A stretch of 51,583 nt of DNA from an uncultured Candidatus Saccharibacteria bacterium (GCA_964521645.1 CAZFSB010000001.1:17712-69294); one strand, 5' to 3'; counted from the first letter of the stretch, positions 29,901 through 45,783 are shown. Translations and numbers: made by a program. The notes: generated from the sequence alone by a model not told the origin.

Positions 29901-29954
29901 AAGCTTTCTCGTGATCCAGTTGCGCTATTCTGCTTTTTCTCGTACCGTACTGAC

Positions 29955-30752: not shown

Positions 30753-30868
30753 AAGAAGGGCAGGGCGCTCCCTATCCACCACCATACGCACAGCTTATAC
30801 ACAGTTTTATACAAAAGTGTGTGCATTTCTTGCTGTAAGTCTTTATCGTACTGCTATACTTATGTCAT

Positions 30869-31759
30869 ATGCAGGGTCAGATCAACCCAAAGATAATTGG
30901 TGCAACCATTATTGGTTTTGCGCTTGTGGCTAGTGCTTTTACAGTGAGCAGTTTGCAGAGCGAGCGCACCATCCCTCAGCCGGCAGCAGTGGCTCTCGGT
31001 AGTCAACCACGTGCGCCAATCGCCGTCGTTGACAACGACAACAATGGTATCGAAGACTGGCGTGATGATTTCGTGACCACTGAGCCGGTCGTTCTTGATC
31101 AAGCCTCCTCTACCTACACCTTACCCACTACGCTGACCGGCAAGACCAGCATTGGTCTTCTGGAAAACTACGTTCGTTCCAAAAACTATGGTCCGTTCGG
31201 CAGTTCTGAAGAAGAGATAATCACCAACACCGTCAATTATCTCGCAAAAGAGACAGAGATCAAATTCTACAATACCCCCGATATCACGATCATGGAAACT
31301 TGGGACGACCAAGATATTCTCAATTACGCCAACGTTGTCGCCTCAACGATCTACAAACACAACGTGGCTGATACTGAAGGTGAGTTGGCCGTCCTCTATG
31401 ATATTCTTTCTACAAACAACTCTGCACGACTAGGGGAACTAACAGCCCTTTCTGAGATGTATAAGAACTATCGAGATGATACCCTACTGATCCCCGTTCC
31501 AGCTTTTCTGGTCAAAGAACACCTTGATCTCATCAACACCTACCACTCTTTACACGAGGACATTAAGGCGATGTTGCTCATATTTGATGACCCCGCTGTC
31601 ACCTTGTTACGCCTGAAACGTTACGAGGATGACACGACTGGCCTTGGTTACGCCCTTCAGAATATATACTTCGCTCTCGAGCCATACGCTTATTTGGTCA
31701 CCTCGGTTGAGGAGCCGGCCACCCTGTTCGCCATCTTCAGTCCTGATTTTAATAATTAA
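30869..31759 (+). CDS. hypothetical N-terminally anchored protein, first gene of the T4SS-like cluster
   Basis: N-terminal TM (IIGATIIGFALVASAFTV). TATACT lies 8 nt upstream of the ATG. No family recognised. Confidence 0.65.
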   Translation: MQGQINPKIIGATIIGFALVASAFTVSSLQSERTIPQPAAVALGSQPRAPIAVVDNDNNGIEDWRDDFVTTEPVVLDQASSTYTLPTTLTGKTSIGLLENYVRSKNYGPFGSSEEEIITNTVNYLAKETEIKFYNTPDITIMETWDDQDILNYANVVASTIYKHNVADTEGELAVLYDILSTNNSARLGELTALSEMYKNYRDDTLLIPVPAFLVKEHLDLINTYHSLHEDIKAMLLIFDDPAVTLLRLKRYEDDTTGLGYALQNIYFALEPYAYLVTSVEEPATLFAIFSPDFNN

Positions 31760-31769
31760 TTTATCATCT

Positions 31770-32885
31770 ATGGATACCTTTTTTACCTACCTTAAGAAAA
31801 GCCTCGTCGCCACAGTTTTTGTGATGTTTGCTTTGGTCGCCACCTACACCCCACAGGACTGGAATAAAGTGGAGGTGGCATATGCTGGTGGGGCGGGAGG
31901 TGGTGCCCTGGAGATAACACAACAGATACGTTGGGCCTTTGAAAAAGTCAACAACCTGGCAATAAAGATCTCAACCGGCATCTCTGCTTTTGCGACCAAC
32001 AGCCTTTGGATCAAGGAGAACTTTCTTGATGGTATCGCTTGGTACGCTGCCAAATTCATCATATCTCAAATAACGCAGAGTTTAATCAGTTGGATAAACT
32101 CGGGCTTTAAGGGTAGTCCGATGTTCATTCAAGACCTCGAGGCCTTCCTGCGCAACGCGGCCGATCAGGCGGTCGGCGAATATATCGATGAACTTGGTGG
32201 CCCGCTTTCCTTCCTTTGCGATCCGTTCAAGCTTGATATCCAAGTAGCCATCGCGATGCAGTACTACAAACAAGATCGCACCTCCCAACCAGCGCCAACC
32301 TGTACTTTGACCAACATCATTGGAAACATTGAAGATTATACTTCGGGAACCCTCGGAAGCTTTGAGCAAGGAGGTTGGGATAACTGGTTGAACATCGTCG
32401 CCCAACCGAGCGTATACACTCCATACGGCGCCTTGCTAGCAGCGCAGAGCGGGGCTGACATACGTGTACTCTCCACCATGGGAGAGGAGACGACCAAATC
32501 ACAGTGGACCAGCGGTTTCCTTTCGCAGCAGATCTGTCAGATGATATCAAGTGGAGGTACTACCAAGGAAAACTGTTTTATCACCACTCCAGGCAAGGCC
32601 GTTCAGGAAGCACTTGGTTTCAATCTTGACTCCGGTCGGGAGACCCTCGTCGCTGCCGATGAATTCAACGAACTGATTGGCTCACTCTTTAGCCAACTGG
32701 CCAATAAGGCACTTGGGGGTGCCGCCGGCTTACTGGGAATCTCTGGTGGCACTGGTTATACTGAGTACGACCCTTCTGGCACTACTTACCTCGACTCCAC
32801 CGTTCTAGATCAAATGGACCTATATATAGAATCGCAAGAACCGGAACCAGAACCGGAACCAGAACCGGAACCAGCAATGCCATAA
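31770..32885 (+). CDS. hypothetical N-terminally anchored or secreted protein with a C-terminal (Glu-Pro)7 repeat
   Basis: ORF 31629 trimmed to ATG 31770 (MDTFFTYLKKSLVATVFVMFALVA...), 10 nt after the upstream stop. Confidence 0.65.
   Translation: MDTFFTYLKKSLVATVFVMFALVATYTPQDWNKVEVAYAGGAGGGALEITQQIRWAFEKVNNLAIKISTGISAFATNSLWIKENFLDGIAWYAAKFIISQITQSLISWINSGFKGSPMFIQDLEAFLRNAADQAVGEYIDELGGPLSFLCDPFKLDIQVAIAMQYYKQDRTSQPAPTCTLTNIIGNIEDYTSGTLGSFEQGGWDNWLNIVAQPSVYTPYGALLAAQSGADIRVLSTMGEETTKSQWTSGFLSQQICQMISSGGTTKENCFITTPGKAVQEALGFNLDSGRETLVAADEFNELIGSLFSQLANKALGGAAGLLGISGGTGYTEYDPSGTTYLDSTVLDQMDLYIESQEPEPEPEPEPEPAMP
32838..32873 (+). repeat. 3 x 12-nt perfect tandem repeat (GAACCGGAACCA) encoding EPEP units
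   Basis: Read directly from the sequence. Lies at the 3' end of the 31770..32885 CDS. Confidence 0.9.
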
Positions 32886-32893
32886 CCATCACT

Positions 32894-35143
32894 ATGACCC
32901 TTCGCTCTTCGCACATTCTTACCATCATCCTACTAGCCACACTACTCCTTACTGTGCCGTTTTTAGTGGAGGCGGCGGCGACTAAAGCTGGGCCTCCGAC
33001 GGCGTTTCAGAACGTACTCTGGTCAATCACAGTCTCTGTTTTCGGTCTTTTTGTCTGGCTGTCGAGCGCGATAATCGATATTGGGATCAATACCTACGTT
33101 ATCGGTTTTGGTGATAAGTTCATAACCACCGGCGTTGGCTCAGCAGTTGACAGCCTCTGGACCACCGTGCGTGATATCTTTAACCTTACCTTTATTTTCG
33201 GACTGGTATTTATCGGGTTCAAGATGATCCTTAATAGCGACGATTCAAATACCAAGCGTTGGCTCATCAATCTCATTCTGGCTGCGCTCCTGGTCAACTT
33301 CAGCCTCTTCATCACCAAGGCGGTGGTCGACTTCACCAACATTGCTGCTACCCAGATCGCTCAAGGATTCCCTGTGGATGGTGACAAGGTTTCCCTATCC
33401 AAGGGGTATATGAATATGCTTGGAATACAAAGTTTACTGGGGGGCAACGTCGTACCTGGTACAGAACAAAATGCCTACGGCTTCATCTTTGGCACCATGA
33501 TCCTCTTCGTTGTCATGACTTTCGTCTTCGCGGCGGGAGGTATACTGCTCTTGATCCGCTACGTGGTGCTCTGCTTATACATGATCTTATCACCGCTCAT
33601 GTTCTTAGGCTGGGTCTTTCCGCAACTGCAAAGCATCTCTAACCAATACTGGCAAGGATTTTTGAGTCGTGCTTTCTTTGCCCCGGTCTTTCTACTTCTA
33701 GTTTATTTTTCTCTCTTTGTACTCTCTGCGCTATATAAAGGGTTCGCCACCACTGCTACTGAAAATGAATCCTTGAAAAACGCGTTCGCAACAGCTCAAC
33801 CCGGGCAATTGCCTTCCGTTGAAGCAGCCTTCATCCCCTTCATTCTGAGCGCTATCTTCCTCATCGCTTCCATCGTGGTGGCCAACAAAATGGGCGCTGA
33901 TGGCGCTAGCACCGCCCTTCGGATGGGCAAAAGCGCTAGCAGCTGGGCACAGACCAGAGCCAAGAGAGCTGGAATCGGAACTACTAAATTTGCAGCATCT
34001 CAAACTGGTGGTCGCTTAGCCCGTCGCGGGTCATACGCACTTGGTAATACGCTAAATCAGCAAATTAGCCGCATGCAGAATTCAAACAATCGACTTGTCC
34101 GTGCCGCTGCCAGAAGTACTGCGGTTGACTCCACCGTGCGTGGCGGTGCAGCTAAGATGACAAATGCGAAGTTCGGATTGGCTCGAACGAGAGAACAAGA
34201 ACAAGCTGAAAGTAACCGGATCAATCGTAATGCGGATAGACGAGCTGATGAAGAGCGAACCAGGCAAGCCGAGCAAAATACGAGACTCACTCCCGCTAGC
34301 ACAGATGCTGAAATTACAGCTCATCAGAACGCTCGCCAGGCACATGCACAAGAAGTTAGTCAAATGTCCAATGAGCAGGTTGTTGAAATGGCAAGGCAAG
34401 ACAGGGCGTATGTTCAATCTCCAGAGTTTGCCTCGCTTCTTTCCGTGGCTCAGACAACTGCACTAAGAGAATCTGGAATCTACGATAACGCTGAAATGAC
34501 CCAACTTGAACAAAACAGAACTGACGGAGCGCTTCAGGAAGTCAACCAGGTTCTTACTAATTCAAATGCCTCGGTAGAAAACCTCAATACAGCTATCGAC
34601 AACCTCAATAGGACTGTCAGTACGATGTCAGATCAGCAGATTAGTGACGTGATAGCACGTGACACGAGAGCAGGAAGACCTACGGATCCTGCTTTTGCGG
34701 CCAGCATGACTCAGGCACAGTTTGATACATACATGAACTCATCAGCCTCTCAAGCAGAAAAGAATGCTCTAAGGACAGCACGAGGCGACGGACAACAACG
34801 TATTGCACACTATGGTAGCCTCGTCGATCCTACTTCAGCAGGGGCGACTTCACCTGGAGCAACCGATGCCGACTTCCAAGACAGAAATCGCCGTCGATTA
34901 TTCCGTAACGCTCAGCAGGCTGGTGCCTTGCCTGCGGCGGTACTTGCAGATCCTGAAGTTCGTGAGTTCTTAACACCTCGCATCATTGAAGAATTCTTGA
35001 ACAATAACCCTAATCCTGGTGACATAACAAGTGTAAGAAACAATGTTGAAGATTACATAACTGACCCACTCACACCAAACGCAGTAACCAGCACCTGGCA
35101 AACCTGGATGAATACAACGGTTCTAGGAAGGCGTTTCCAATAA
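32894..35143 (+). CDS. VirB6/TrbL-like polytopic membrane protein with a long hydrophilic C-terminal half
   Basis: Signal-like N-terminus, then about 7 TM helices in the first ~340 aa, then a Gln/Asn/Arg/Ala-rich soluble region. Its size and position beside VirB3/VirB4-like genes resemble the VirB6-type subunits of Gram-positive conjugation systems. Confidence 0.6.
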   Translation: MTLRSSHILTIILLATLLLTVPFLVEAAATKAGPPTAFQNVLWSITVSVFGLFVWLSSAIIDIGINTYVIGFGDKFITTGVGSAVDSLWTTVRDIFNLTFIFGLVFIGFKMILNSDDSNTKRWLINLILAALLVNFSLFITKAVVDFTNIAATQIAQGFPVDGDKVSLSKGYMNMLGIQSLLGGNVVPGTEQNAYGFIFGTMILFVVMTFVFAAGGILLLIRYVVLCLYMILSPLMFLGWVFPQLQSISNQYWQGFLSRAFFAPVFLLLVYFSLFVLSALYKGFATTATENESLKNAFATAQPGQLPSVEAAFIPFILSAIFLIASIVVANKMGADGASTALRMGKSASSWAQTRAKRAGIGTTKFAASQTGGRLARRGSYALGNTLNQQISRMQNSNNRLVRAAARSTAVDSTVRGGAAKMTNAKFGLARTREQEQAESNRINRNADRRADEERTRQAEQNTRLTPASTDAEITAHQNARQAHAQEVSQMSNEQVVEMARQDRAYVQSPEFASLLSVAQTTALRESGIYDNAEMTQLEQNRTDGALQEVNQVLTNSNASVENLNTAIDNLNRTVSTMSDQQISDVIARDTRAGRPTDPAFAASMTQAQFDTYMNSSASQAEKNALRTARGDGQQRIAHYGSLVDPTSAGATSPGATDADFQDRNRRRLFRNAQQAGALPAAVLADPEVREFLTPRIIEEFLNNNPNPGDITSVRNNVEDYITDPLTPNAVTSTWQTWMNTTVLGRRFQ

Positions 35144-35150
35144 AAATTCT

Positions 35151-35645
35151 ATGATTCAAATTGACACAAACTCATTCCTGAAGGCTTTCAATGCTGCTGA
35201 TGAAAACAAGAAGGAATTGATGCGTAATTCACGAATCAATGATTGCATACTCGGATCATCAATCAAGATGAATATAGATACCGATTCAAAATCCTTGATA
35301 TTGTTGTTTGGTTATAAAATATTAGGTTTGATTGACAGTCAGACTTTGTACAGGGAGCTAAAAGTGCTCGGAATTAATGATGCTGAAGCATTCGCAACGA
35401 CGGTGCTTTCGTGTGTAGAAGTCACTAACACTCCCTCCTCCCCACATACAATTCACAATGAGGAGACAAGTGTAGAAAATAAATCAAAGATACAGACAAC
35501 TACCCCCCACATCCGCACCATGGCAGACGACATGGCAAAGTCACAAGCAGCCGGCGAGCATGTCTACACCTCCACCCAAGAGGCAATCCTCAAAGAAGGT
35601 TGGTCGACACCAAAGCCAGCGCAAAATCCACCCCAGTCTTCGTAA
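35151..35645 (+). CDS. hypothetical protein (164 aa)
   Basis: ORF starts 7 nt after the upstream stop. Contains an IRTMADDMAKS motif. No family recognised. Confidence 0.55.
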   Translation: MIQIDTNSFLKAFNAADENKKELMRNSRINDCILGSSIKMNIDTDSKSLILLFGYKILGLIDSQTLYRELKVLGINDAEAFATTVLSCVEVTNTPSSPHTIHNEETSVENKSKIQTTTPHIRTMADDMAKSQAAGEHVYTSTQEAILKEGWSTPKPAQNPPQSS

Positions 35646-35710
35646 CTCATTGGGGATAGACGTCGACAAATGATTCGTATCAGCTTCACCACCATGTATA
35701 ATGGTGGTGT

Positions 35711-36133
35711 ATGCGTTTTGAAGTTCCTCAATTCATCGAGATCGAAGACAAGATCTTCGGACCACTGTCCTGGCGGCAGTTCCTCTACCTCAGTGGAGGA
35801 GTCGGCATGGCCGTGGTCATCTTTTTCACCACTAACCTCATTGTCTTTGCTTTTCTCGGACTGCCCCTAGCACTCTTGGCCGGGGCCCTGGCCTTTTATC
35901 CGGTCAACAATCGCCCCTTCTCCTTTTTCCTAGAAGCCATCTTCAATTACCTCACCAAACAGCGCCTGTACCTCTGGCGTAAACGGTCCGATGTGGTGTA
36001 TCGTGCCGCGCCAACCACCCACCAGAGCGCCACCAACCTAGCAGTAAGGCGTGGTGAAGTGGCAGCGAAGAAGAAAGATATCGGCTCGATGGCCCGACGA
36101 CTAGAATTACAAGCATTACAAAAAACAGAATAG
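35711..36133 (+). CDS. PrgI-family (VirB3-like) small T4SS membrane protein
   Basis: N-terminal VPQFIEIEDKIFGPLSWRQFLYL followed by two TM helices. This is the pattern I associate with PrgI/VirB3-like proteins that sit directly upstream of VirB4. Confidence 0.65.
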   Translation: MRFEVPQFIEIEDKIFGPLSWRQFLYLSGGVGMAVVIFFTTNLIVFAFLGLPLALLAGALAFYPVNNRPFSFFLEAIFNYLTKQRLYLWRKRSDVVYRAAPTTHQSATNLAVRRGEVAAKKKDIGSMARRLELQALQKTE

Positions 36134-36134
36134 T

Positions 36135-36776
36135 ATGGCGACAGCAAAAGCAGCAACCCAAGATTTTGTCTCGATCCGAGACATCAAAGACAACGTGGTC
36201 ATCCAGAAGGGTGGGCAGATGCAAATGGTGCTGCTCGCTTCTTCGGTAAACTTTGCCCTCAAGTCGCTCGACGAGCAGAAAGCCATCCTCATGCAGTTCC
36301 AGCAGTTTCTGAACACACTCGACTTTTCTCTCCAGATATATGTCCAGTCTCGCCGACTGAACATCGATCCATACCTCGAGTTACTGGCAACCTTGGAGAA
36401 TAAACAAGACAACGACCTTATGCGCATTCAGCTCCGTGAGTACATGGAGTTCATTCGCACCTTCACCACGGACGTCGACGTGATGAGCAAGAGCTTCTTT
36501 GTTGTCATTCCGTATACTCCTTCGCCAGTCAACCTCACCAAGGGCATCACCAATCTCTTCGCGCCGAGCGCGTCTACCACCAGCACCCTTCCTGGTGATG
36601 CGCAGTTTGAGGAACACCGCATTCAGCTCGAACAGCGCGTCGGGATGGTGACGGAAGGTTTGGCGCGTGTCGGGGTACGCACCATTACGCTCCAGAAGGA
36701 TGACTTGGTTGAGCTGTACTACCATCTTTACAATCCCGCTGACCCGACCGGCTCGGCTCCGATCATGGAAAATTAA
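36135..36776 (+). CDS. VirB4/TraC N-terminal-domain-like protein (detached N-terminal module)
   Basis: IRDIKDNVVIQKGGQMQMVLLASSVNFALKSLDEQKAILMQFQQFLNTLDFSLQIYV resembles the extreme N-terminus of Gram-positive VirB4-type ATPases. It is in the same reading frame as the next ORF and separated from it by TAA TAA plus 4 codons. Confidence 0.55.
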   Translation: MATAKAATQDFVSIRDIKDNVVIQKGGQMQMVLLASSVNFALKSLDEQKAILMQFQQFLNTLDFSLQIYVQSRRLNIDPYLELLATLENKQDNDLMRIQLREYMEFIRTFTTDVDVMSKSFFVVIPYTPSPVNLTKGITNLFAPSASTTSTLPGDAQFEEHRIQLEQRVGMVTEGLARVGVRTITLQKDDLVELYYHLYNPADPTGSAPIMEN

Positions 36777-36791
36777 TAATCTGCTATTTAT

Positions 36792-38585
36792 ATGGGTATC
36801 TTAAGTTCACTACAACCACAAGCTGGAAAAAACGGAGACAAGATGAGCGATCAGCTGCTCACCCTTACCGATGTCATCGCTCCTTCCGCCATTAGCATCA
36901 CCCCGCGTAGCATCAACATCAGCGGCATGACCGCCCGTGTCTACTATGCCGTATCCTACCCACGCTTCCTCAGTGACGGTTGGCTCGAGCCGGTTCTCAA
37001 CCTAGCTAAGGAGCTCGACATATCGATCTTCGTTCACCCGATCGACACCGCAGATACCCTTAAAAAATTCCAGAAGAAAGTGGCTGAGGTACAAAGTCAG
37101 ATCAACCTCAAGGAAGAGAAGGGGGAAGTGCGTGACCCACAGCTCGAGGCAGCCTTTCGCAACCTTGAGGAGCTACGTGATAAGCTGCAGCAAGCAGAAG
37201 AGAAACTCTTCAATGTCGGTTTCTACCTGGCCATCTACGGCGAAAATGAAACGGCTATCAGCAAGGCGGAAAATGAGATCCGCGGCGTGCTCGATGCTCG
37301 CATGGTCGCTATGAAGCCAGCCCTCTTTCAGCAAGAACAAGGACTGAAGAGTATCATGCCCCTAGCGACCGACGAGCTCTTGGTCCACAGCAAATTCAAT
37401 TCTGAACCACTCTCCAGCTTTTTCCCCTTCACCTCCTTCGATCTCACCTCAGACACCGGCATCCTCTACGGTATCAACCGACATAATTCTTCGCTCGTTC
37501 TCTTCGACCGCTACTCTCTCACCAACTACAACTCCGTGACCTTTGCCACTTCTGGGGCAGGGAAGTCTTACGGCCTCAAACTGGAGATCCTTCGCTCACT
37601 CATGTTCGGCGCGGAGGTGATCGTACTCGACCCGGAACGAGAGTACGAATACTTGGCCGAAGCCACCGGTGGTCGCTTCTTTAATATCTCACTTTCCTCT
37701 AACCACCACGTAAACCCCTTCGATCTACCGCCGCCAGGGGAAGATGAGGACCCTCGTGATGTTTTGCGCACGCACGTCATTGAGCTTGTCGGCCTATTTC
37801 GTCTCATGCTCGGTGGCCTCACCGCCGAGGAAGAGACGCTCATCGACCTAGCGATCCAAGAAACTTACGCTCTCAAGGACATCACCGGCGACACAAACTT
37901 CGGTGATATGGAACCCCCGCTCCTGACAGACTTTGAGATGGTGCTCGCTGGTATGGATGGCAGCGCGTCACTTATCACCCGTCTCCAAAAATATACCTCA
38001 GGTACCTGGTCGGGCTTCATGAATAAGCCGACCAATGTTGACATCAACCAAAAATTCATCGTCTTCTCGCTCCGTGACATGGAGGATGAGCTAAAGACCA
38101 TCGCGATGTACATTATTACGAACTACATTTGGGGCTCAATCCGTCGCCGTCTCGCGAAGCGACTCATGGTGATCGACGAGGCGTGGTGGATGATGAAAAG
38201 TGAAGACACCGCTTCCTTCCTCTTCTCGCTCGCCAAACGTGGCCGTAAGTACTACCTCGGCATCGCTACCATCACCCAAGACGTGGACGACTTTCTCCGC
38301 TCACCGTATGGTGTGCCGATGATCACTAACTCCTCCATTCAGCTCCTTATGAAGCAGTCGCCGACCGCTATCGATAATATTCAAAAGACTTTCAACCTCA
38401 CCGATGAAGAGAAATTCCTTCTTCTGGAATCAAACGTGGGGGAGGGGATATTCTTTGCTGGCCTGAAGCACGTTGCCATTAAGATCATCGCTTCCTACAC
38501 CGAAGACCAGATCATCACCTCCGACCCATCGCAGCTACTCCAGATCCAGCGCGCCCGTGAGGAACTACAAGCCTCCCGCACTTAG
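36792..38585 (+). CDS. virB4: VirB4-family type IV secretion ATPase
   Basis: Walker A TSGAGKSYGLK, DPEREYEYLA, Walker B MVIDEAWWMM, and RGRKYYLGIATITQDVDDF. Confidence 0.88.
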   Translation: MGILSSLQPQAGKNGDKMSDQLLTLTDVIAPSAISITPRSINISGMTARVYYAVSYPRFLSDGWLEPVLNLAKELDISIFVHPIDTADTLKKFQKKVAEVQSQINLKEEKGEVRDPQLEAAFRNLEELRDKLQQAEEKLFNVGFYLAIYGENETAISKAENEIRGVLDARMVAMKPALFQQEQGLKSIMPLATDELLVHSKFNSEPLSSFFPFTSFDLTSDTGILYGINRHNSSLVLFDRYSLTNYNSVTFATSGAGKSYGLKLEILRSLMFGAEVIVLDPEREYEYLAEATGGRFFNISLSSNHHVNPFDLPPPGEDEDPRDVLRTHVIELVGLFRLMLGGLTAEEETLIDLAIQETYALKDITGDTNFGDMEPPLLTDFEMVLAGMDGSASLITRLQKYTSGTWSGFMNKPTNVDINQKFIVFSLRDMEDELKTIAMYIITNYIWGSIRRRLAKRLMVIDEAWWMMKSEDTASFLFSLAKRGRKYYLGIATITQDVDDFLRSPYGVPMITNSSIQLLMKQSPTAIDNIQKTFNLTDEEKFLLLESNVGEGIFFAGLKHVAIKIIASYTEDQIITSDPSQLLQIQRAREELQASRT

Positions 38586-38608
38586 GGGTGTAGTATACTG
38601 ATACGTAT

Positions 38609-39655
38609 ATGGCGGTACCGCAGCCAGCAGACCGGGGAACGTACGATCGCTCAAGTGAGTCGGGGGCTTTTCCAGCCGCCGCCAATGACCCCCGGTTTGT
38701 GCAAAGACCTAACTTGCGCGTGACCAACGTAACTAATACAACTCGCCCTGATACAACGCAGCGTACGGTAGTCCGCCGTACCTCTGCCGATCGTTCTGAC
38801 CTGCGTGGACCAACTGTCACGCGCAACGTACGAGTCTCCACCATGCCCGGTTCGCATAAAGAGGTTGGTGACAGTGGGCACAAGACCACTGACCAACAGT
38901 TCACTGAGAGCTACGCGAAGGCTGGACTTCAACCCTCTTCTCTAGATGATATACCTCCCGGCGCCAACCAAAGACAGTATGACGCTGTTCCCCAGATCAC
39001 CCGCAGCGCTGGAGGGAGAGAATCCACCGCTTCTGTTCCTGCTGGGGTTTCTAATGAGCAATTACAGTATCGGCAAGCTGCTGGACAGGCGTCCTTCTTA
39101 AAGAAGGCAATGCGTAGTAAAGTTTCTTTAGCAAAGACCAACGCGGCTCATATTAAAGCTGCGGCGACCACAGCAAGCATCTATTCCTGGGCAGTTCCTT
39201 TGTGGCTGATATTTCAATTACCACTTGCCTTACTTGGCCTGGCCGCGATGATGGTTGGGATCGCTATCGAGACAGCTATTAGAGATTACGCAGTAGCAAA
39301 ACCGGATGACGGAATCCTTACCTATGCATTTAAAACGGTTGTCGGGGCCGTTTTGGAGGCGGGAACAGCAGTGGTTGGTTATATTACTGGTTTATTTGGT
39401 ATCGATCTCTCAATTCTCAATCCGCTGAATATCTTCCTCGCCCTACACCTGGTGTTAGTAGGGTATGCCATTATCCTTCTATTTGCGATCTTTTTGATCT
39501 ACAAATTACGTTTTATGAACCCTTTATTTGGATCAGGTGGCGGCATGAAGACCGGAGCCTTTTTACTTGCCTTGGTTGGTTACTCTGTTCCTATCCTTAA
39601 TTTGTTTCCTTGGTTCGTACCCTGGACAGTGACCGTCTTCCTTCATCCAAAGTAG
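38609..39655 (+). CDS. hypothetical membrane protein: disordered N-terminal half plus about 5 C-terminal TM helices
   Basis: TATACT lies 9 nt upstream of the ATG. No family recognised. Confidence 0.6.
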   Translation: MAVPQPADRGTYDRSSESGAFPAAANDPRFVQRPNLRVTNVTNTTRPDTTQRTVVRRTSADRSDLRGPTVTRNVRVSTMPGSHKEVGDSGHKTTDQQFTESYAKAGLQPSSLDDIPPGANQRQYDAVPQITRSAGGRESTASVPAGVSNEQLQYRQAAGQASFLKKAMRSKVSLAKTNAAHIKAAATTASIYSWAVPLWLIFQLPLALLGLAAMMVGIAIETAIRDYAVAKPDDGILTYAFKTVVGAVLEAGTAVVGYITGLFGIDLSILNPLNIFLALHLVLVGYAIILLFAIFLIYKLRFMNPLFGSGGGMKTGAFLLALVGYSVPILNLFPWFVPWTVTVFLHPK

Positions 39656-39781
39656 AGGATCGGTGTTTTTATAATTGACTGACCGGAAATCTCCACAGTT
39701 TTTCCCAACACTATACACAGCCCATCCCCGTTTTTCCCACAGGTTCTTGAAAAAGACCCTCTCGAGAGCTCTCCATCTGAT

Positions 39782-40762
39782 ATGATTATGCATATGAGGA
39801 CCCTTTCACTAATCTTTCTATTCGCAGCCGTTTTTATGGCCGCGCCAACCTACGCACAATTTGATTCTCTCACGTACTCAGGAAATGACTCCGGGCTCGA
39901 ATTTCAGCCAGAGTTTCCTCAACCAGGAGAACTGGTCACCATCTCCATCAGAGACTACCGGAACAGTAGCTATGGAGCAAAGATAACTTGGGTTCTAGAT
40001 GGCAAAGTAATTCCAGACGCTGAAAACCAGCGACAGGTGAGTGTTACCGCCGGCGCAGCTGGCGGGTCCCAAAAGATCGAGGCTGTCCTTACTCGTGTGA
40101 CCGGCTCAAACGATGTCATTAGCGCTGTCCTCCGACCGGTCTACCTCGACATCATTCTCGAACCACAAACCCGAACCCCAGATTTCTATCTCGGTCGGTC
40201 CCTCCCCAGCGTTGGCAGTTCGGTAAACGCTACTGTTTTGGTGAGTCAGGGTAGTGGCATCAGAAACACTGACCTCGTCTACACCTGGAAATTGGGGCAG
40301 CAGGTGCTCGGTGGTGGCCCACTACGCGGCCAGAACAAGATCTCCTACATCACCCCGGTTGGGAACGGGGAGATCATGTCTGTTCAAGTTTCTGAACTAG
40401 GTGGCACCGTTTTGGCTCGCCGAGCTTTCCTAGTACCTTCCGTCGACCCGGTGATCCGCTTCTATGAGGTCAATGCGCTTTTTGGTATAAACAAAAAGGC
40501 GGTCACTACCGGGGCTCCCCTTATTAGCAACAGCTTGACGCTGCGCGCCGAACCATACTACCTCGACTCCCGTATCTATAATGACCCGGCCATTTTACAG
40601 TGGAAGCTTGGTGGTAGGGAAGCAAGCAACACCAGCAGCAACCCCTACGAGATAGCCTTGCAGCGCACTGGTCTTACTGGTTCGACGCAGTTAGAGTTTC
40701 TGGTTCGTGATACGAAGCAGGTCTTACAGGGTGCCCAAGCAACCACGCGCATTAATTACTGA
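39782..40762 (+). CDS. hypothetical secreted protein
   Basis: Signal peptide MRTLSLIFLFAAVFMAAPTYAQ. ATG at 39782, 39788 or 39794 is possible. Beta-rich composition. Confidence 0.6.
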   Translation: MIMHMRTLSLIFLFAAVFMAAPTYAQFDSLTYSGNDSGLEFQPEFPQPGELVTISIRDYRNSSYGAKITWVLDGKVIPDAENQRQVSVTAGAAGGSQKIEAVLTRVTGSNDVISAVLRPVYLDIILEPQTRTPDFYLGRSLPSVGSSVNATVLVSQGSGIRNTDLVYTWKLGQQVLGGGPLRGQNKISYITPVGNGEIMSVQVSELGGTVLARRAFLVPSVDPVIRFYEVNALFGINKKAVTTGAPLISNSLTLRAEPYYLDSRIYNDPAILQWKLGGREASNTSSNPYEIALQRTGLTGSTQLEFLVRDTKQVLQGAQATTRINY

Positions 40763-40767
40763 TCCTT

Positions 40768-41967
40768 ATGAAACGTCCTCTTTTCGTCATTATTGGAAGC
40801 GTCATCGTCCTGGTCCTGATCTTTGTCTGGGTATATATCCTCTTCTTTAGTGAGCCGAAGGTAGGTGATGAGTCTTTTGCCGACCTCGGTTTTGGGGACA
40901 CTACCGACACTAGCTATGATCCCACTATCGGGACGGGAACTGAAGAGACCGAACCAATCGTTGACGTCTCTGGTCCCGAACGACTCCGCCAACTCACTAC
41001 CCGTCCGGTAGTGGGGTATCAAGATGTACAAAAGGCCCCTAGTTCGACACCCGCTGTCTACTACGTTGAGTCGGGCACTGGACACATCTTTTCTATCGAT
41101 CTCGTTTCTGGTGAGGAAAGGCGTATTTCTGGCACCACCATTCCTGCTAGTCGTGAAGCAGTGATCACTCCTGATGGCCAATTCCTCATGGCCCGCTCTG
41201 GTTCTGGTAATGGCGCAAAGATTATTGTTGGTGAAATTGACCCTATGCAAGAAAGTGTTTCTATCGGAACCATTGATGAGCGTATCGTCAGTTTTACCGC
41301 AACCACCGACAACACTTTCCTCTACGCCGTGCAAACTGGTGACTCGGTGATCGCCAAGGAATATGACCCTACCACTGCTTCAGCTAAGAACCTTTTTACC
41401 ACCCCCTTCCGCGAAGCGGTCATCGCCTGGGGCAAGAGCGCTGCTGATACACACCACTTCTATCCTAAAGCAGCCGCTCAACTGGAGGGCTACGGATACC
41501 AGGTTACGAAGGGAAAGATCGACCGCCTTCCAGCCGATGGGTATGGGTTCTCGCTCCGGGGAAGTAGCGCTGGTGTTCTCTACAGTGAGCAGGTGAACTA
41601 TGACTACCGGTCCTTTATTTACAATACATCACTCGACACGACATTTCCCGCACCACTTCTTCTCATTCCAGAGAAGTGTGCCGCCCTTACCCTGACACCC
41701 GCCAACCTGGTGTGTGGGGGACAATTTGGTATGAATGGTGAATCACTACCAGATAATTGGTACCAGGGCATTATCTCTTTTGCTGATGGTTTATGGCTCA
41801 TCGATGTTGAAAACGGCTTGGTGGAGGAATTGGTAAATATCACCAGTGAAAGCGGCCGGCAATTGGATGTCACTGGTGTTCTAGTCAGCAGTGATGATCA
41901 GCGGCTGTACTTTACCAACTCGCATGATAACTACCTCTGGACACTTGACCGCTCCTTGGCACAATAA
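40768..41967 (+). CDS. hypothetical N-terminally anchored protein, possible beta-propeller (PD40/TolB-like repeats)
   Basis: N-terminal TM. Repeats of the type YYVESGTGHIFSIDLVSGEERRISG. The fold call is tentative. Confidence 0.6.
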   Translation: MKRPLFVIIGSVIVLVLIFVWVYILFFSEPKVGDESFADLGFGDTTDTSYDPTIGTGTEETEPIVDVSGPERLRQLTTRPVVGYQDVQKAPSSTPAVYYVESGTGHIFSIDLVSGEERRISGTTIPASREAVITPDGQFLMARSGSGNGAKIIVGEIDPMQESVSIGTIDERIVSFTATTDNTFLYAVQTGDSVIAKEYDPTTASAKNLFTTPFREAVIAWGKSAADTHHFYPKAAAQLEGYGYQVTKGKIDRLPADGYGFSLRGSSAGVLYSEQVNYDYRSFIYNTSLDTTFPAPLLLIPEKCAALTLTPANLVCGGQFGMNGESLPDNWYQGIISFADGLWLIDVENGLVEELVNITSESGRQLDVTGVLVSSDDQRLYFTNSHDNYLWTLDRSLAQ

Positions 41968-41985
41968 GTTAGTTAACCCACCTTT

Positions 41986-42732
41986 ATGAAACAACACTTT
42001 CTCATCGCCGCACTCATCACTACCTTTTCTTTCCCGCTTTTTTCTTTTGCAGCGACCTATACACCCTTGGTCGGGATTCCTGGGGTTGATCCAGCCGCTG
42101 ATTTCAATACCTATATCAACAGCCTCTACGCACTTTCGATCAGTATCGCCGCTCTCCTGGCCGTCATTAAGATCATCATTGCTGGCGTAAAGTGGATGAT
42201 GACCGACGTAGTCACCACAAAAGGGGAGGCAAAGAAAGATATTCAAGGAGCCCTCATTGGTCTCATTATCGTCATTGCGGCGGTACTTATTTTGAACCAG
42301 ATCAATGAAGACATAACAAATGTTAACCTTAAATTTGAATCTCCAGTTTCCCCAACCGCTTCTCCAGTTGTAACAACTGCACCTCCCCCCCTACCAGCAG
42401 GATACGTGCTGACTCTAACACCAACAGCAAAACTGACCTACTGGACACAAGCTCATAATCTGACCTCAGAACAAGTACAAACAATTATTAATAATTGTAA
42501 TAAAACACCAAACTCACGAGCTGAATTACCTACTGATTCTAGCGGCACTACTTATCCAAGGTGTCTTACTTTTAGTAGCACGGAATACTCAAAAATGTAT
42601 AGGAATTGCCTACCAGGCGATTGTAGTACACCAACCCAGAACGTTTTAGACAATTGTGAAAAAGTCCTAAAGGGAAGCTATAAGGTAGATCTTGTTTTAA
42701 CAAGTTACGGATACTGTACATACCCTGATTAA
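41986..42732 (+). CDS. VirB2/TrbC-like T4SS pilin with a Cys-rich C-terminal extension
   Basis: Signal peptide, then two hydrophobic helices separated by a short charged loop (LYALSISIAALLAVIKIIIAGVKWMM...KDIQGALIGLIIVIAAVLILNQI). A ~130-aa tail carries 7 Cys. Confidence 0.6.
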   Translation: MKQHFLIAALITTFSFPLFSFAATYTPLVGIPGVDPAADFNTYINSLYALSISIAALLAVIKIIIAGVKWMMTDVVTTKGEAKKDIQGALIGLIIVIAAVLILNQINEDITNVNLKFESPVSPTASPVVTTAPPPLPAGYVLTLTPTAKLTYWTQAHNLTSEQVQTIINNCNKTPNSRAELPTDSSGTTYPRCLTFSSTEYSKMYRNCLPGDCSTPTQNVLDNCEKVLKGSYKVDLVLTSYGYCTYPD

Positions 42733-42772: not shown

Positions 42773-43501
42773 CTACCGATGCTTTCTAATGAAATATTCC
42801 TGGGCGATAGTGACCACGTTGCTCACAAAGAAGTAGAGAGCGATCGCGGCTGAGATGGAGTACGCCACAATCGTAATAAGGACCGGCATCACGTACTTCA
42901 TTTGGGTATGCATATTGCGCATGAAATCCTCTTTGAGATTTGGCGCGGCCCCTTCTGCCTTTGGTGGGGGAGCGGGCATGGTGAGGGTGACATGAATATA
43001 CTGCGTGATTCCCGCTCCGAGCGCGAGCAGCAGGCTCTTTTCCGTGATATTGATCAGCCCAAGGAAATCCATCGTCACTTGGGTTGGCGCGGCAATGAAC
43101 GCATAAAGGAGGGAGAGATTGATATCGGGAAGAGCCACCCCACCGCCGCTGTATACTGAGAAATACAAAGCGATGATGATCGGTATCTGCAAGAATATCA
43201 AGGCAATGCTCGCGAGTGGGTTTATCCCCGCATCGCGATAGATCGCCATCATCGCCTGCGCTTGCTGCTGTCGGTCGTCTTTATATTTCTCTTTAATTTC
43301 TTTGAGTTTTGGTTCGATCTCGCGGATCACTTTTTGAGTCTTAACCGCCTTAATAGAGAGCGGAAGTAAAATGGTCTTCACGAGGAGGACGGTCGCAATG
43401 ATGGCTAAACCAACGTCTCCACCGGGGATGATATCAATAAAAAAGACCAGTGCGTTGTAGACTGGGTCGAAAAAAAACGTGTGCCAAATATAACTGAACA
43501 T
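42773..43501 (-). CDS. yidC: membrane protein insertase YidC (short, Oxa1-type)
   Basis: 242 aa and 5 TM. Conserved rnpA-yidC synteny. The LLVKTILLPLSIKAVKTQ and MKYVMPVLI regions are typical. Confidence 0.88.
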   Translation of the reverse strand: MFSYIWHTFFFDPVYNALVFFIDIIPGGDVGLAIIATVLLVKTILLPLSIKAVKTQKVIREIEPKLKEIKEKYKDDRQQQAQAMMAIYRDAGINPLASIALIFLQIPIIIALYFSVYSGGGVALPDINLSLLYAFIAAPTQVTMDFLGLINITEKSLLLALGAGITQYIHVTLTMPAPPPKAEGAAPNLKEDFMRNMHTQMKYVMPVLITIVAYSISAAIALYFFVSNVVTIAQEYFIRKHR

Positions 43502-44308: not shown

Positions 44309-44337
44309 GCAAATCACCGTACGATCTTCGTTTGATT

Positions 44338-45770: not shown

Positions 45771-45783
45771 ATCACTTGTTAAT

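What the first reader, a model, noticed from the sequence alone, without database searches (positions are those of the whole stretch)
30869..42732. Origin-proximal, chromosomally embedded minimal type IV secretion-like cluster without DNA-processing genes
Eleven same-strand ORFs are separated mostly by 1-23 nt, with two larger gaps of 65 and 126 nt. Five are recognisable: a VirB6/TrbL-like polytopic protein (32894-35143), a PrgI/VirB3-like protein (35711-36133), a detached VirB4 N-terminal module (36135-36776), the VirB4 ATPase (36792-38585) and a VirB2/TrbC-like pilin (41986-42732). The other six are orphan anchored or secreted proteins (30869, 31770, 35151, 38609, 39782, 40768). Nowhere in the window is there a relaxase, a VirD4-type coupling ATPase, VirB11, a dedicated cell-wall hydrolase, an integrase or flanking att repeats. 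The flanks are rsmA and yidC, and the cluster ends 1.6 kb from dnaA. That content does not fit a conventional conjugative element. It suggests a domesticated apparatus used for something else, such as cell-cell attachment, protein delivery or DNA uptake in an epibiotic lifestyle. The six orphan genes are the undescribed part.
Basis: partly seen in the sequence, partly recalled or inferred. Interest (0 to 1): 0.75.

Follow-up and report, generated by a model that had tools for sequence, protein, structure and literature searches.

The report
Patescibacteria chromosomal type IV secretion locus
This is the origin-proximal, non-conjugative type IV secretion gene cluster that ultra-small Patescibacteria (here a Paceibacteria/Kaiserbacteria-like genome) carry as a vertically inherited chromosomal locus; the system was already described in 2023-2025, and only its six lineage-specific accessory genes remain uncharacterised.

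Summary
Eleven same-strand ORFs (30869-42732) have gaps of 10, 8, 7, 65, 1, 15, 23, 126, 5 and 18 nt, between rsmA and yidC, and end 1.6 kb before dnaA. PrgI/VirB3, VirB4 and a VirB2-type pilin are confirmed by profiles. The 213-aa protein is the true N-terminal piece of a split VirB4 (TrsD-like). The VirB6 call is supported only through orthologues. No relaxase, coupling protein or VirB11 is in the window.

The cluster is not new. VirB4 is 66-94% identical to hundreds of Patescibacteria proteins. The order uvrD-rsmA-[11 genes]-yidC-rnpA-dnaA-dnaN recurs in essentially all 80 related species loci I fetched. Quiñonero-Coronel et al. 2025 described this T4SS, including TrsD, PrgI, VirB6, pilins, no relaxase, and proximity to dnaA, ksgA and rnpA. 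Wang et al. 2023 showed the Saccharibacteria version is essential for epibiotic growth.

What I add:
- All six "orphans" are conserved positional components.
- One is a TolB-like β-propeller and one is an Ig-like secreted protein.
- One belongs to a very large unannotated family with variable adhesin-like C-termini.
- The pilin carries a C-terminal domain with no match in the 80 loci.

The motor is as conserved as DnaA, while the exposed parts evolve fast.

Verdict: a new member of a known kind, of modest interest.

The parts
30869..31759 (+). g1: N-terminally membrane-anchored extracytoplasmic protein (296 aa) with a DxDxNGxxDW Ca-binding-like loop and a helical bundle; lineage-specific accessory component
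   Evidence: One TM-like segment at residues 9-27. No Pfam, NCBIfam or PHROG hit. Profile against PDB gives only weak EF-hand matches at the DxDxDG loop (E=0.08). AF2 model has pLDDT 81 and pTM 0.62, a helical bundle over residues 89-276. No significant Foldseek match in PDB or BFVD. Present in 53 of 57 related loci with enough upstream flank.
31770..32885 (+). g2: secreted or anchored protein (371 aa) with a conserved ~330-aa domain (motifs WINSGFxGSPxFV, TPG, ADExNEI; four conserved Cys) and an EP-repeat tail; candidate surface or tip adhesin
   Evidence: Found by tblastn in 54 of the 80 loci. The family has 5,233 representatives at E<=1e-3 and 2,169 at E<=1e-30 in the 1.84-billion-protein library. 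No known family or PDB relative. Orthologues carry variable C-terminal Ig-like, PKD or F5/8-type-C domains. The window copy is about 100 aa shorter than most homologues. The AF2 model is poor (pLDDT 68, pTM 0.31), mostly helical with one beta hairpin, and gives no fold match.
32894..35143 (+). g3: extended VirB6/TrbL-like polytopic membrane protein (749 aa): signal or TM segment plus about 7 TM segments in residues 1-330, then a ~420-aa hydrophilic, basic, helical C-terminal domain
   Evidence: Hydrophobic segments. No significant hit for the window protein itself. Nine of 60 orthologues hit PF04610 TrbL (best 3.6e-8) and one hits TrbL_4. The family profile hits TrwI (VirB6 of R388, 7o3v_F) at E=0.035 across the TM region.
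35151..35645 (+). g4: small cytoplasmic protein (164 aa) with an N-terminal ~90-aa helical domain, a Pro-rich disordered linker and a short conserved C-terminal motif; fast-evolving but always between VirB6 and PrgI
   Evidence: No TM segment. tblastn finds it in only 3 loci, but an iterated profile finds it in 71 of 80 loci overall, and in 66 of the 69 loci with enough flank, always at that position. Alignment A8 shows a C-terminal DPYRE motif in distant species and RTM..D / TSTQ..IL in close ones.
35711..36133 (+). g5: PrgI/VirB3-like membrane protein (140 aa)
   Evidence: PF12666 PrgI at 5.2e-11, 43.4 bits against a cut-off of 27. Present in 79 of 80 loci.
36135..36776 (+). g6: TrsD-like protein (213 aa), the detached N-terminal segment of VirB4
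   Evidence: NCBIfam VirB4_plasma 6.5e-10 (protein 4-141 to profile 100-248 of 894), CD1110 family profile positions 2-102, and TrsD 0.039. g7 starts at profile positions 287 and 178 of the same two models, so the two genes tile one VirB4. hhalign of g6 against g7 finds no similarity. Present in 80 of 80 loci.
36792..38585 (+). g7: VirB4 ATPase (597 aa), the motor of the system
   Evidence: PF19044, PF12846 and PF01935. NF045971 CD1110-family VirB4 at 1.3e-106, 357.6 bits against a cut-off of 325. PDB 4AG5 (Thermoanaerobacter VirB4 C-terminal domain) at 1.5e-40, and TrwK at 3.5e-5. At least 8,000 homologues, the best 85-94% identical, named Kaiserbacteria, Parcubacteria or Patescibacteria.
38609..39655 (+). 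g8: membrane protein (348 aa) with a ~185-aa disordered N-terminal region and 3-5 C-terminal TM segments; conserved last hairpin motif (G..K....GY.iPilN.fPW)
   Evidence: TM segments. A polytopic ORF starts a median 8 nt after the virB4 stop in 52 of 74 loci. hhalign of close against distant positional equivalents gives Prob 87%, E 3.6e-6. Not pilin-like.
39782..40762 (+). g9: Sec-signal-bearing secreted protein (326 aa) made of Ig-like beta-sandwich domains
   Evidence: N-terminal hydrophobic segment. The family profile hits phage T4 Hoc Ig-like domains at 5.8e-7. Among orthologues, 16 of 66 hit BiPBP_C and 4 of 66 hit Ig_3. Present in 70 of 80 loci.
40768..41967 (+). g10: N-terminally anchored TolB-like beta-propeller protein (399 aa) with a conserved Cys pair
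   Evidence: TM segment at residues 7-25. The family profile hits eleven TolB sequences at 3-6e-6. Orthologues give weak PD40, DPPIV_N or beta-propeller hits, and one carries PG_binding_1. Present in 68 of 80 loci.
41986..42732 (+). g11: VirB2-type T4SS pilin (248 aa): signal peptide plus two TM helices (residues 1-112), followed by a Pro-rich linker and a Cys-rich ~110-aa C-terminal domain with no match in the 80 related loci
   Evidence: PF18895 T4SS_pilin at 5.6e-6, 26.8 bits against 26.6. NF045849 Mbov_0395 pilin-like at 2.6e-5. The core is 36-67% identical to 75 ORFs in the loci, while residues 113-248 have no blastp hit. The closest relative's pilin is 122 aa.

Best explanation
The cluster is the vertically inherited, chromosomal type IV secretion system of the Patescibacteria VirB4 clade. 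That clade derives from the monoderm MPF-FATA conjugation machinery. Here it appears in the arrangement typical of Paceibacteria (Kaiserbacteria/Parcubacteria-like genomes).

Shown:
- The cytoplasmic-membrane core is present: an extended VirB6-like protein (g3), PrgI/VirB3 (g5), and a VirB4 ATPase split into a TrsD-like N-terminal piece (g6) and the main body (g7).
- There is one VirB2-type pilin (g11).
- The six unannotated genes are conserved positional members of the locus, not random orphans.
- No coupling protein, relaxase or VirB11 is nearby.
- The locus sits in the same order between rsmA and yidC-rnpA-rpmH-dnaA in related species.

Inferred:
- VirB6 and PrgI dock the VirB4 hexamer at the membrane.
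- VirB4 extracts the pilin from the membrane and polymerises a tube.
- g8 (polytopic), g10 (anchored TolB-like propeller), g9 (Ig-like), g1 (anchored helical bundle) and g2 (secreted, with a variable adhesin-like end) build the wall-spanning and distal parts. In other systems these roles are filled by VirB8/VirB1 or VirB7/9/10/VirB5.
- The fast-evolving g2 and the variable pilin C-terminus contact the host cell.
- The machine serves the epibiotic lifestyle, as a host-contact and penetration conduit for T4CP-independent transfer (protein export or uptake of host macromolecules), not conjugation.
For: Parts:
- PrgI, VirB4 and pilin profiles. VirB4 scores above the curated cut-off of the Firmicute CD1110 family, and its best solved relative is a Firmicute VirB4.
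- g6 and g7 tile one VirB4 model.
- VirB6 is supported via orthologues and TrwI.

Inheritance:
- 571 tblastn-confirmed relatives were found in GTDB species genomes. The 80 best loci are all Patescibacteria MAGs.
- The order uvrD-rsmA-g1..g11-yidC-rnpA-dnaA-dnaN recurs.
- g1 is in 53/57, g4 in 66/69 and g8 in 52/74 of the loci with enough flank. g9 is in 70 and g10 in 68 of the 80 loci.
- GC content is unremarkable, and there are no att-like repeats.

Constraint: against the closest relatives, VirB4 is 91% identical. DnaA is 92%, DnaN 82% and YidC 81%. By contrast g1, g2, g3, g8, g9 and g10 are 35-56%.

No T4CP, relaxase or VirB11 domain was found in any scanned ORF of the window.

Literature:
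- The same system and context are described in PMC12102498.
- The Southlakia T4SS SEML1_0004-0019 is essential for epibiotic growth, has pilins, lacks a coupling protein and relaxase, and also lies next to dnaA-dnaN (PMC10633639).
- Tubular structures that may be T4SS pili, together with host RNA uptake, are reported in a cultivated relative (bioRxiv 10.64898/2026.06.21.733656).
Against: - No experiment exists for any Paceibacteria T4SS. The function is extrapolated from Saccharimonadia and one preprint.
- The window is 51.6 kb of a larger genome, so a coupling protein or relaxase could be encoded elsewhere. PMC12102498 reports VirD4 homologues in most Patescibacteria genomes, usually far from virB4.
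- The VirB6 call rests on orthologues and a weak profile hit.
- The pilin profile score is only just above threshold.
- The roles assigned to g1, g2, g4, g8, g9 and g10 are inferred from location, topology and fold class only.
- The g2 structure model is unreliable.
- No VirB8-like (NTF2) or VirB1-like protein was identified inside the cluster.
Confidence: 0.85

Rival explanations
1. A decayed integrative conjugative element (ICE) or conjugative transposon that lost its integrase, relaxase and coupling protein, leaving a non-functional T4SS remnant.
For: VirB4 scores best against a family defined on Clostridioides conjugative transposons (CD1110) and on Mycoplasma ICE proteins. DNA-processing genes are missing from the window.
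Against: The gene order and chromosomal site are the same in essentially all 80 related species loci. All eleven ORFs are intact. VirB4 is as conserved as DnaA. There is no GC anomaly and there are no flanking repeats. The only tyrosine recombinase is XerC/D-type and lies 12 kb away. The homologous Saccharibacteria locus is essential (PMC10633639).
Confidence: 0.02
2. A working DNA-conjugation machine whose coupling protein and relaxase are encoded elsewhere in the genome.
For: VirD4-type homologues occur in most Patescibacteria genomes away from virB4 (PMC12102498). The window covers only part of the genome. A PcrA/UvrD helicase is syntenic just upstream.
Against: Relaxases were found in only 103 of 3,035 Patescibacteria genomes (PMC12102498). 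In Southlakia the coupling-protein homologue is dispensable while the T4SS genes are essential. PcrA is a housekeeping helicase. A machine as conserved as DnaA in reduced genomes is hard to explain by conjugation alone.
Confidence: 0.06
3. A DNA- or nucleic-acid-import machine analogous to Helicobacter ComB or the archaeal Ced system. It would bring in host nucleic acids through the pilus, with host RNA as the cargo in the recent 'RNA-feeding' model.
For: - Nucleic acids must be acquired from the host, because nucleotide synthesis is absent in the phylum.
- A cultivated relative takes up host RNA and shows tubular structures at the interface.
- PNPase (20233-22404) and a NYN RNase (19476-20093) lie 9-11 kb upstream.
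- There is a weak VirB4 similarity to CedB (5.8e-9).
Against: The CedB score (35 bits) is far below the family cut-off (700). In Southlakia, competence needs ComEC, and losing it does not affect viability, so DNA import is not the essential role (PMC12857230). The RNA-uptake route is explicitly unresolved in the preprint. No nucleic-acid-binding component was identified in the cluster.
Confidence: 0.15
4. Only an adhesion organelle: the VirB4 core builds a pilus whose sole job is to bind the host, with nothing translocated.
For: There is a pilin with a hypervariable C-terminal domain, and g2 has variable adhesin-like ends. No coupling protein is present. VirB4 alone is known to drive pilus biogenesis in other T4SSs (general knowledge of VirB/Trw systems).
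Against: Patescibacteria already use type IV pili for host adhesion (PMC12206443 and PMC10633639, as listed). An extended VirB6 channel subunit is retained and conserved. The T4SS is separately essential in Southlakia.
Confidence: 0.12

Closest known systems
Patescibacteria-clade T4SS as catalogued by Quiñonero-Coronel et al. 2025 (Microb Genom 11:001409; PMC12102498), Paceibacteria arrangement
   Same: - A VirB4 of Patescibacteria type, with a TrsD-like gene next to it.
- PrgI/VirB3, VirB6 and a VirB2-like pilin near virB4.
- No relaxase or coupling protein nearby.
- Neighbours dnaA, dnaN, rnpA, rpmH and ksgA/rsmA.
   Different: Nothing essential differs. The paper leaves the remaining neighbours unannotated. 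Here they are shown to be conserved components, and two get fold-class assignments (TolB-like, Ig-like). The TrsD-like gene is shown to tile with VirB4 rather than duplicate part of it.
Southlakia epibionticum ML1 T4SS, SEML1_0004-0019 (Wang et al. 2023, Cell; PMC10633639)
   Same: - The same core order in the direction of transcription: VirB6-like, PrgI, TrsD-like, VirB4, then exported envelope proteins including Ig-like ones.
- VirB2-type pilins.
- No coupling protein or relaxase in the cluster.
- Directly beside dnaA-dnaN and transcribed towards the origin.
   Different: - Southlakia has two giant VirB6-like proteins, a six-gene pilin array, lysozyme/CHAP and DD-peptidase genes just downstream of virB4, and an NTF2-like protein.
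- This window has one VirB6-like protein and one pilin with a C-terminal extension.
- It has no hydrolase inside the cluster.
- It also has g1, g2, g4, g8 and a TolB-like propeller, which are not listed for Southlakia.
MPF-FATA conjugative T4SSs of monoderms (pCF10 Prg/Pcf; Clostridioides CTn / CD1110 family; Mycoplasma ICE Mbov_0395-0397)
   Same: VirB4 scores above the CD1110-family cut-off. There is a PrgI-type VirB3 and a VirB6-like channel subunit. The pilin-like and VirB4 hits to the Mycoplasma ICE families show shared ancestry.
   Different: No coupling protein, relaxase, VirB8-like (PrgL/TraM) or VirB1-like hydrolase is in the cluster. VirB4 is split. The locus is a fixed chromosomal site rather than a mobile element. 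A VirB2-type pilin is present, which Gram-positive conjugation systems generally lack.
T4CP-less effector translocators (Bordetella Ptl, Brucella VirB)
   Same: They work without a VirD4 coupling protein and are chromosomal and non-conjugative. This comparison draws on the review PMC12857230 and PMC12102498.
   Different: Those are diderm MPF-T systems with a VirB7/9/10 outer-membrane core, VirB5, VirB8 and VirB11. None of these was detected here.

Membership tests
Patescibacteria-clade T4SS (PMC12102498) | VirB4 belonging to the Patescibacteria clade nested in MPF-FATA | tested here: met
   All of the best 120 of at least 8,000 homologues are 85-94% identical; those that carry a name are labelled Patescibacteria, Kaiserbacteria or Parcubacteria. 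The 80 genome loci are all Patescibacteria MAGs. The best curated family is the Firmicute CD1110 family, scored above its cut-off. The best PDB relative is a Firmicute VirB4. No phylogenetic tree was computed.
Patescibacteria-clade T4SS (PMC12102498) | TrsD-like (VirB4 N-terminal-like) gene adjacent to virB4 | tested here: met
   g6 ends 15 nt before g7. It hits VirB4_plasma at 6.5e-10, CD1110 profile positions 2-102, and TrsD at 0.039. It is present in 80 of 80 loci.
Patescibacteria-clade T4SS (PMC12102498) | VirB3/PrgI, VirB6 and VirB2-like pilin near virB4 | tested here: met
   PrgI at 5e-11. Pilin PF18895 just above the cut-off, plus NF045849. VirB6 is supported only via orthologues (9 of 60 hit TrbL) and a weak TrwI profile hit.
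Patescibacteria-clade T4SS (PMC12102498) | No relaxase or coupling protein next to virB4; chromosomal site near dnaA, dnaN, rnpA, rpmH and ksgA | tested here: met
   No such domains were found in the ORFs scanned. The flanking genes were identified. The synteny holds in 80 loci.
MPF-FATA conjugative T4SS (pCF10 / CTn type) | Coupling protein (VirD4/PcfC or TcpA) and relaxase associated with the MPF genes | tested here: not met
   No T4CP or relaxase domain is in the 51.6-kb window. The rest of the genome was not available.
MPF-FATA conjugative T4SS (pCF10 / CTn type) | VirB8-like NTF2-fold protein (PrgL/TraM/TcpC) and VirB1-like cell-wall hydrolase (PrgK/TraG) in the cluster | tested here: not met
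   Profiles of g1, g2, g9 and g10 against PDB gave no VirB8, TraM or hydrolase hits. The g1 model is an all-helical bundle. The only hydrolase nearby is an M23+LysM protein 3.5 kb upstream on the opposite strand, which is DipM/NlpD-like. g4 and g8 were not modelled.
MPF-FATA conjugative T4SS (pCF10 / CTn type) | VirB4 of the monoderm type and PrgI-type VirB3 | tested here: met
   NF045971 at 357.6 bits against a cut-off of 325. PF12666 at 43.4 bits against 27.
Integrative conjugative element | Site-specific integrase at one end, flanking att direct repeats, variable presence among relatives | tested here: not met
   The only recombinase is XerC/D-type, 12 kb away. The sole flanking repeat (17 nt, 30790 and 44212) is at chance level and is not conserved. 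The locus is present at the same site in the related genomes.
Diderm MPF-T (VirB/VirD4) system | VirB7/VirB9/VirB10 outer-membrane core, VirB5, VirB8, VirB11 | tested here: not met
   No Pfam or NCBIfam hits to these families in any cluster protein. Profile-PDB searches of the accessory proteins returned no VirB5, VirB8, VirB9 or VirB10 chains above noise. CagX appears only at E>1 for the g3 tail.
DNA-import T4SS relatives (archaeal Ced, Helicobacter ComB) | CedB/ComB4-type ATPase with the cognate CedA/ComB partners | tested here: not met
   CedB model at 35 bits against a cut-off of 700. No CedA or ComB-like partner was detected.

The most novel reading that the evidence does not exclude
The five conserved envelope proteins would form a previously undescribed wall-spanning and tip module. 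They are g1 (helical bundle), g2 (large unannotated family with variable adhesin-like ends), g8 (polytopic), g9 (Ig-like) and g10 (anchored TolB-like propeller). In Paceibacteria this module would replace VirB8/VirB1/VirB5. Together with a pilin carrying a strain-specific C-terminal domain, it would build a host-penetrating tube. Host macromolecules such as RNA would be imported through that tube without a coupling protein, with the small cytoplasmic g4 as adaptor or regulator.
Probability: 0.15. Interest if true: 0.8.

Novelty: new member of a known kind. Interest (0 to 1): 0.3.

Why it matters
The Patescibacteria T4SS is currently regarded as one of the most intriguing newcomers to the T4SS superfamily. 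It is the only T4SS known to be essential for its bearer, it is a monoderm system with pilins, and its substrate is unknown (PMC12857230).

This window adds nothing to the published concept. It does give a clean Paceibacteria example in which every gene of the locus can be delimited. The useful leads are the accessory set:
- A TolB-like propeller.
- An Ig-like secreted protein.
- A very large unannotated secreted family (5,233 cluster representatives at E<=1e-3) with variable ends.
- A conserved small cytoplasmic protein with terminal short motifs.
- A pilin with a hypervariable C-terminal domain.

If these prove to be structural or host-recognition parts, they would help explain how a monoderm builds a pilus-bearing T4SS and how host range is set.

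Tried and rejected
- Direct family searches (Pfam, NCBIfam, PHROGs) of the six unannotated proteins gave nothing significant.
- Structure prediction of g2 from 60 homologues gave a poor model (pLDDT 68, pTM 0.31), and its Foldseek PDB matches were all noise (E>0.7).
- Structure prediction of g1 gave a fair helical-bundle model. Only generic four-helix-bundle matches came back in PDB (E>0.4) and BFVD (E>0.06). I therefore do not call it VirB5- or VirB8-like.
- I tested whether g8 is a second pilin. hhalign against the pilin family was negative.
- I tested whether g6 is a duplicate of the N-terminal part of g7. hhalign was negative, and the two instead cover complementary parts of VirB4 models.
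- I looked for att-like flanking repeats. One 17-nt pair (30790-30806 and 44212-44228) contains a DnaA-box-like TTATACACA. The upstream-of-g1 copy is found in only 1 of 36 related loci, so I treat it as chance or strain-specific.
- Promoter and terminator consensus scans were no better than shuffled sequence.
- The Rfam scan found only the tRNA-Leu.
- The idea that g2 is a VirB5 analogue rests on three points: it is encoded immediately upstream of VirB6 (as in virB operons, from general knowledge), it is predicted helical, and it is secreted. It has no sequence or fold support and is kept only as speculation.

Full report
**Observation**

The window has eleven + strand ORFs between 30869 and 42732. 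The upstream flank is PcrA/UvrD (27582-29684) and RsmA/KsgA (29883-30752). Downstream lie YidC (42773-43501, -), RnpA (43514-43849, -), RpmH (43984-44133, -), DnaA (44332-45720) and DnaN (46017-47165). The cluster ends 1,600 nt before dnaA.

**The recognisable genes**

- **PrgI/VirB3 (g5).** It passes the Pfam threshold (5e-11).
- **VirB4 (g7).** It hits the TraG P-loop, AAA_10 and DUF87 domains. It scores 357.6 bits on the NCBIfam CD1110-family VirB4 model, whose cut-off is 325. It matches the Thermoanaerobacter VirB4 C-terminal domain structure 4AG5 at 1.5e-40, against 3.5e-5 for R388 TrwK.
- **Split VirB4 (g6 + g7).** The 213-aa g6 matches the N-terminal stretch of full-length VirB4 models: positions 100-248 of 894 in the Mycoplasma ICE VirB4 model, positions 2-102 of the CD1110 model, and weakly TrsD. 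g7 begins at positions 287 and 178 of the same two models. g6 and g7 show no similarity to each other. The two genes therefore tile one VirB4. It is a split gene, not a paralogous copy.
- **Pilin (g11).** It has a signal peptide and two hydrophobic helices. It reaches PF18895 only just (26.8 against 26.6 bits), and also hits the Mycoplasma ICE pilin-like family (2.6e-5).
- **VirB6 (g3).** This is the weakest call. The window protein has 7-8 hydrophobic segments but no significant family hit. Nine of 60 orthologues hit Pfam TrbL/VirB6 (best 3.6e-8), and the family profile finds TrwI (VirB6 of R388) at E=0.035 over the membrane domain.

Pfam and NCBIfam scans of the window ORFs that look like genes found no relaxase, VirD4-type coupling ATPase or VirB11. 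The window does contain a tyrosine recombinase (17449-18417, -). It scores as XerC/XerD/XerA, the chromosome-dimer-resolution type, and lies 12 kb from the cluster. There is also an M23+LysM endopeptidase (26315-27313, -) 3.5 kb upstream. It is DipM/NlpD-like and more likely a division enzyme than a dedicated VirB1. Direct-repeat search gave only short two-copy matches. The single pair that brackets the cluster is discussed under "Other things noticed".

**Origin and inheritance**

- VirB4 has at least 8,000 database homologues. The best are 85-94% identical and are named Kaiserbacteria, Parcubacteria, Nomurabacteria or Patescibacteria.
- A scan of one genome per GTDB species found 571 tblastn-confirmed relatives. 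The 80 best loci (66-91% identity) are all Patescibacteria MAGs.
- tblastn of the window proteins against these loci shows the order uvrD-rsmA-g1-g2-g3-(g4)-g5-g6-g7-(g8)-g9-[g10, g11 in either order]-yidC-rnpA-dnaA-dnaN wherever the flanks reach.

This is a fixed, vertically inherited chromosomal locus, not a mobile element. GC content across it is unremarkable.

**The six "orphans"**

All six are conserved members of the locus.

- **g1.** Found in 53 of 57 loci with enough upstream flank. It has one N-terminal anchor, a DxDxNGxxDW loop that gives weak EF-hand matches, and a helical bundle. The AF2 model has pLDDT 81 and pTM 0.62. It has no significant fold relative in PDB or BFVD.
- **g2.** Found in 54 loci by tblastn. 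It belongs to a very large unannotated family: 5,233 representatives of 50% clusters at E<=1e-3, and 2,169 at E<=1e-30. Its ~330-aa domain carries the motifs WINSGFxGSPxFV and ADExNEI and four conserved cysteines. Orthologues end in variable coiled-coil, Ig-like, PKD or F5/8-type-C domains. The window copy is about 100 aa shorter than most and ends in EP repeats. Its AF2 model is unreliable and matches nothing.
- **g4.** It looked unique by tblastn (3 loci). An iterated profile finds it in 71 of 80 loci overall (66 of the 69 with enough flank), always between VirB6 and PrgI. It has no membrane segment. It consists of an N-terminal helical domain, a Pro-rich linker and a short C-terminal motif, DPYRE in distant species.
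- **g8.** It has a long disordered N-terminus and 3-5 C-terminal membrane segments. A homologous polytopic ORF starts a median 8 nt after virB4 in 52 of 74 loci. The last hairpin is conserved between close and distant versions (hhalign 87%, E 3.6e-6). It is not pilin-like.
- **g9.** A signal-peptide protein of Ig-like domains. The profile hits T4 Hoc at 5.8e-7, 16 of 66 orthologues hit BiPBP_C, and 4 of 66 hit Ig_3.
- **g10.** An anchored TolB-like β-propeller. The profile hits eleven TolB sequences at 3-6e-6, and orthologues give weak PD40/β-propeller hits, one with a peptidoglycan-binding domain.

**Rates of change**

Identity to the closest relatives (L001, L017), all except the last row:

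| Protein | Identity (%) |
|---|---|
| DnaA | 92 |
| VirB4 | 91 |
| UvrD | 83 |
| DnaN | 82 |
| YidC | 81 |
| TrsD-like (g6) | 77-83 |
| PrgI | 65-68 |
| Pilin core | 66 |
| g1 | 56 |
| g9 | 56 |
| g2 | 54 |
| g10 | 48 |
| g8 | 40 |
| VirB6-like (g3) | 35 |
| g4 | about 28 (L002, full length) |
| Pilin residues 113-248 | no detectable relative in any of the 80 loci |

The closest relative's pilin is only 122 aa. The pattern is a motor under housekeeping-level constraint with fast-changing exposed parts. That fits a machine that touches another organism.

**Comparison with what is known**

The finding is essentially the subject of Quiñonero-Coronel et al. 2025 (PMC12102498).

- VirB4 is present in 2,417 of 3,035 Patescibacteria genomes, in a monophyletic clade nested in MPF-FATA.
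- TrsD is the most frequent partner.
- PrgI, VirB6 and VirB2-like pilins lie near virB4.
- Relaxases are nearly absent, and coupling proteins are rarely adjacent.
- For Paceibacteria, dnaA, dnaN, rnpA, ksgA and rpmH are the commonest neighbours, with a gene-dosage argument for origin proximity.

Wang et al. 2023 (PMC10633639) showed that the Southlakia cluster SEML1_0004-0019 is essential for epibiotic growth. It has the same core order (VirB6-like, PrgI, TrsD-like, VirB4, then exported proteins), carries pilins, and lacks coupling and relaxase proteins. The 2025 FEMS review treats these systems as established newcomers (PMC12857230). A 2026 preprint reports tubular structures that may be T4SS pili, and host RNA uptake, in a cultivated relative.

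Relative to Southlakia, this locus differs as follows:
- It has one VirB6-like gene and one pilin, with a C-terminal extension.
- It has no hydrolase inside the cluster.
- It has its own accessory set: g1, g2, g4, g8 and the TolB-like g10.

**Mechanism**

Shown:
- Part identities, split VirB4, topology classes and conservation.
- Absence of DNA-processing genes from the window.

Inferred from established T4SS biology:
- VirB6 and VirB3 dock a VirB4 hexamer at the membrane.
- VirB4 dislocates the pilin and drives polymerisation.
- g8, g10, g9, g1 and g2 supply the envelope-spanning and distal parts.
- g2 and the pilin C-terminus are the host-contact surfaces.
- Transfer is independent of a coupling protein.

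The direction and nature of the cargo are unknown. I rank the options as follows:
1. A host-contact or transfer conduit for proteins or host macromolecules (favoured).
2. Nucleic-acid import specifically (about 0.15).
3. Adhesion only (about 0.12).
4. Trans-complemented conjugation (about 0.06).
5. ICE remnant (about 0.02).

**Other things noticed**

- Four DnaA-box-like 9-mers cluster at 45784-45887, in the dnaA-dnaN spacer. The cumulative GC-skew minimum lies at about 45.7-46.0 kb. oriC is probably there, so the T4SS operon is transcribed towards the origin, head-on to the fork. The Southlakia cluster has the mirror-image arrangement with the same head-on orientation.
- A 17-nt repeat holding TTATACACA lies upstream of both g1 and dnaA. 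It is conserved only at dnaA (14 of 36 loci), against 1 of 36 at g1.
- None of the eleven genes has a GGAG-type motif in the 20 nt before its start.
- A 9-bp stem-loop abuts the g5 start codon.

**Verdict**

This is a new member of a known kind, and its interest is modest, resting on the uncharacterised accessory genes.

Noticed in passing
window 42322-42732 (pilin residues 113-248): The pilin carries a Pro-rich linker and a Cys-rich ~110-aa C-terminal domain. This region has no blastp match in any of 80 related loci. The pilin core is 36-67% identical across those loci, the closest relative's pilin is only 122 aa, and pilin lengths range from 122 to 470 aa.
   Followed up: partly
window 31770-32885: g2 is about 100 aa shorter than nearly all of its homologues (~470 aa) and ends in an EPEPEPEPEPEP tail directly before VirB6. 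Orthologues have variable Ig-like, PKD or F5/8-type-C ends.
   Followed up: partly
window 45721-46016 (dnaA-dnaN spacer) and the whole cluster: Four DnaA-box-like 9-mers lie at 45784-45887, and the cumulative GC-skew minimum is at about 45.7-46.0 kb, which suggests oriC is here. The T4SS operon (+ strand, left of oriC) is then transcribed head-on to replication. The Southlakia cluster is the mirror image with the same head-on orientation.
   Followed up: partly
window 30790-30806 and 44212-44228: A 17-nt near-identical direct repeat (ACAGYTTATACACAGTT) containing a DnaA-box-like TTATACACA lies upstream of g1 and upstream of dnaA. The box is conserved upstream of dnaA in 14 of 36 loci but upstream of g1 in only 1 of 36, so the g1 copy is probably chance or strain-specific.
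   Followed up: yes
window 36792-38585 versus flanking housekeeping genes: VirB4 is 91% identical to the closest relatives. That is as conserved as DnaA (92%) and more conserved than DnaN, YidC and UvrD (81-83%). The envelope components of the same locus are 35-56% identical.
   Followed up: yes
window 35687-35709: A 9-bp stem-loop (CACCACCATGTATAATGGTGGTG) ends one base before the PrgI (g5) start codon, inside the 65-nt gap. It could be a translational or sub-operon control element. Its conservation was not checked.
   Followed up: no
window 30849-42000 (20 nt upstream of each of the 11 starts): None of the eleven genes has a GGAG/GAGG Shine-Dalgarno-like motif in the 20 nt before its start codon.
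   Followed up: no
window 19476-22404: A NYN-domain RNase (19476-20093) and PNPase (20233-22404) lie 9-11 kb upstream of the T4SS. A 2026 preprint links PNPase and the T4SS to feeding on host RNA in this phylum.
   Followed up: no
window 17449-18417 (-): A XerC/XerD/XerA-type tyrosine recombinase. Its ORF overlaps the next unannotated ORF (16485-17555) by about 100 nt, so one of the two starts is probably mis-set.
   Followed up: no
window 22452-24200 (+), 15504-17555 (-), 1645-2514 (+), 8841-9668 (-): Several sizeable ORFs, including a 582-aa one, have no Pfam or NCBIfam match at all.
   Followed up: no
window 9933-11767 and 6168-8831 (-): There are two tandem M14 zinc-carboxypeptidase genes and an 887-aa DUF2339 polytopic membrane protein. 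These are envelope-related genes of unknown role in this reduced genome.
   Followed up: no
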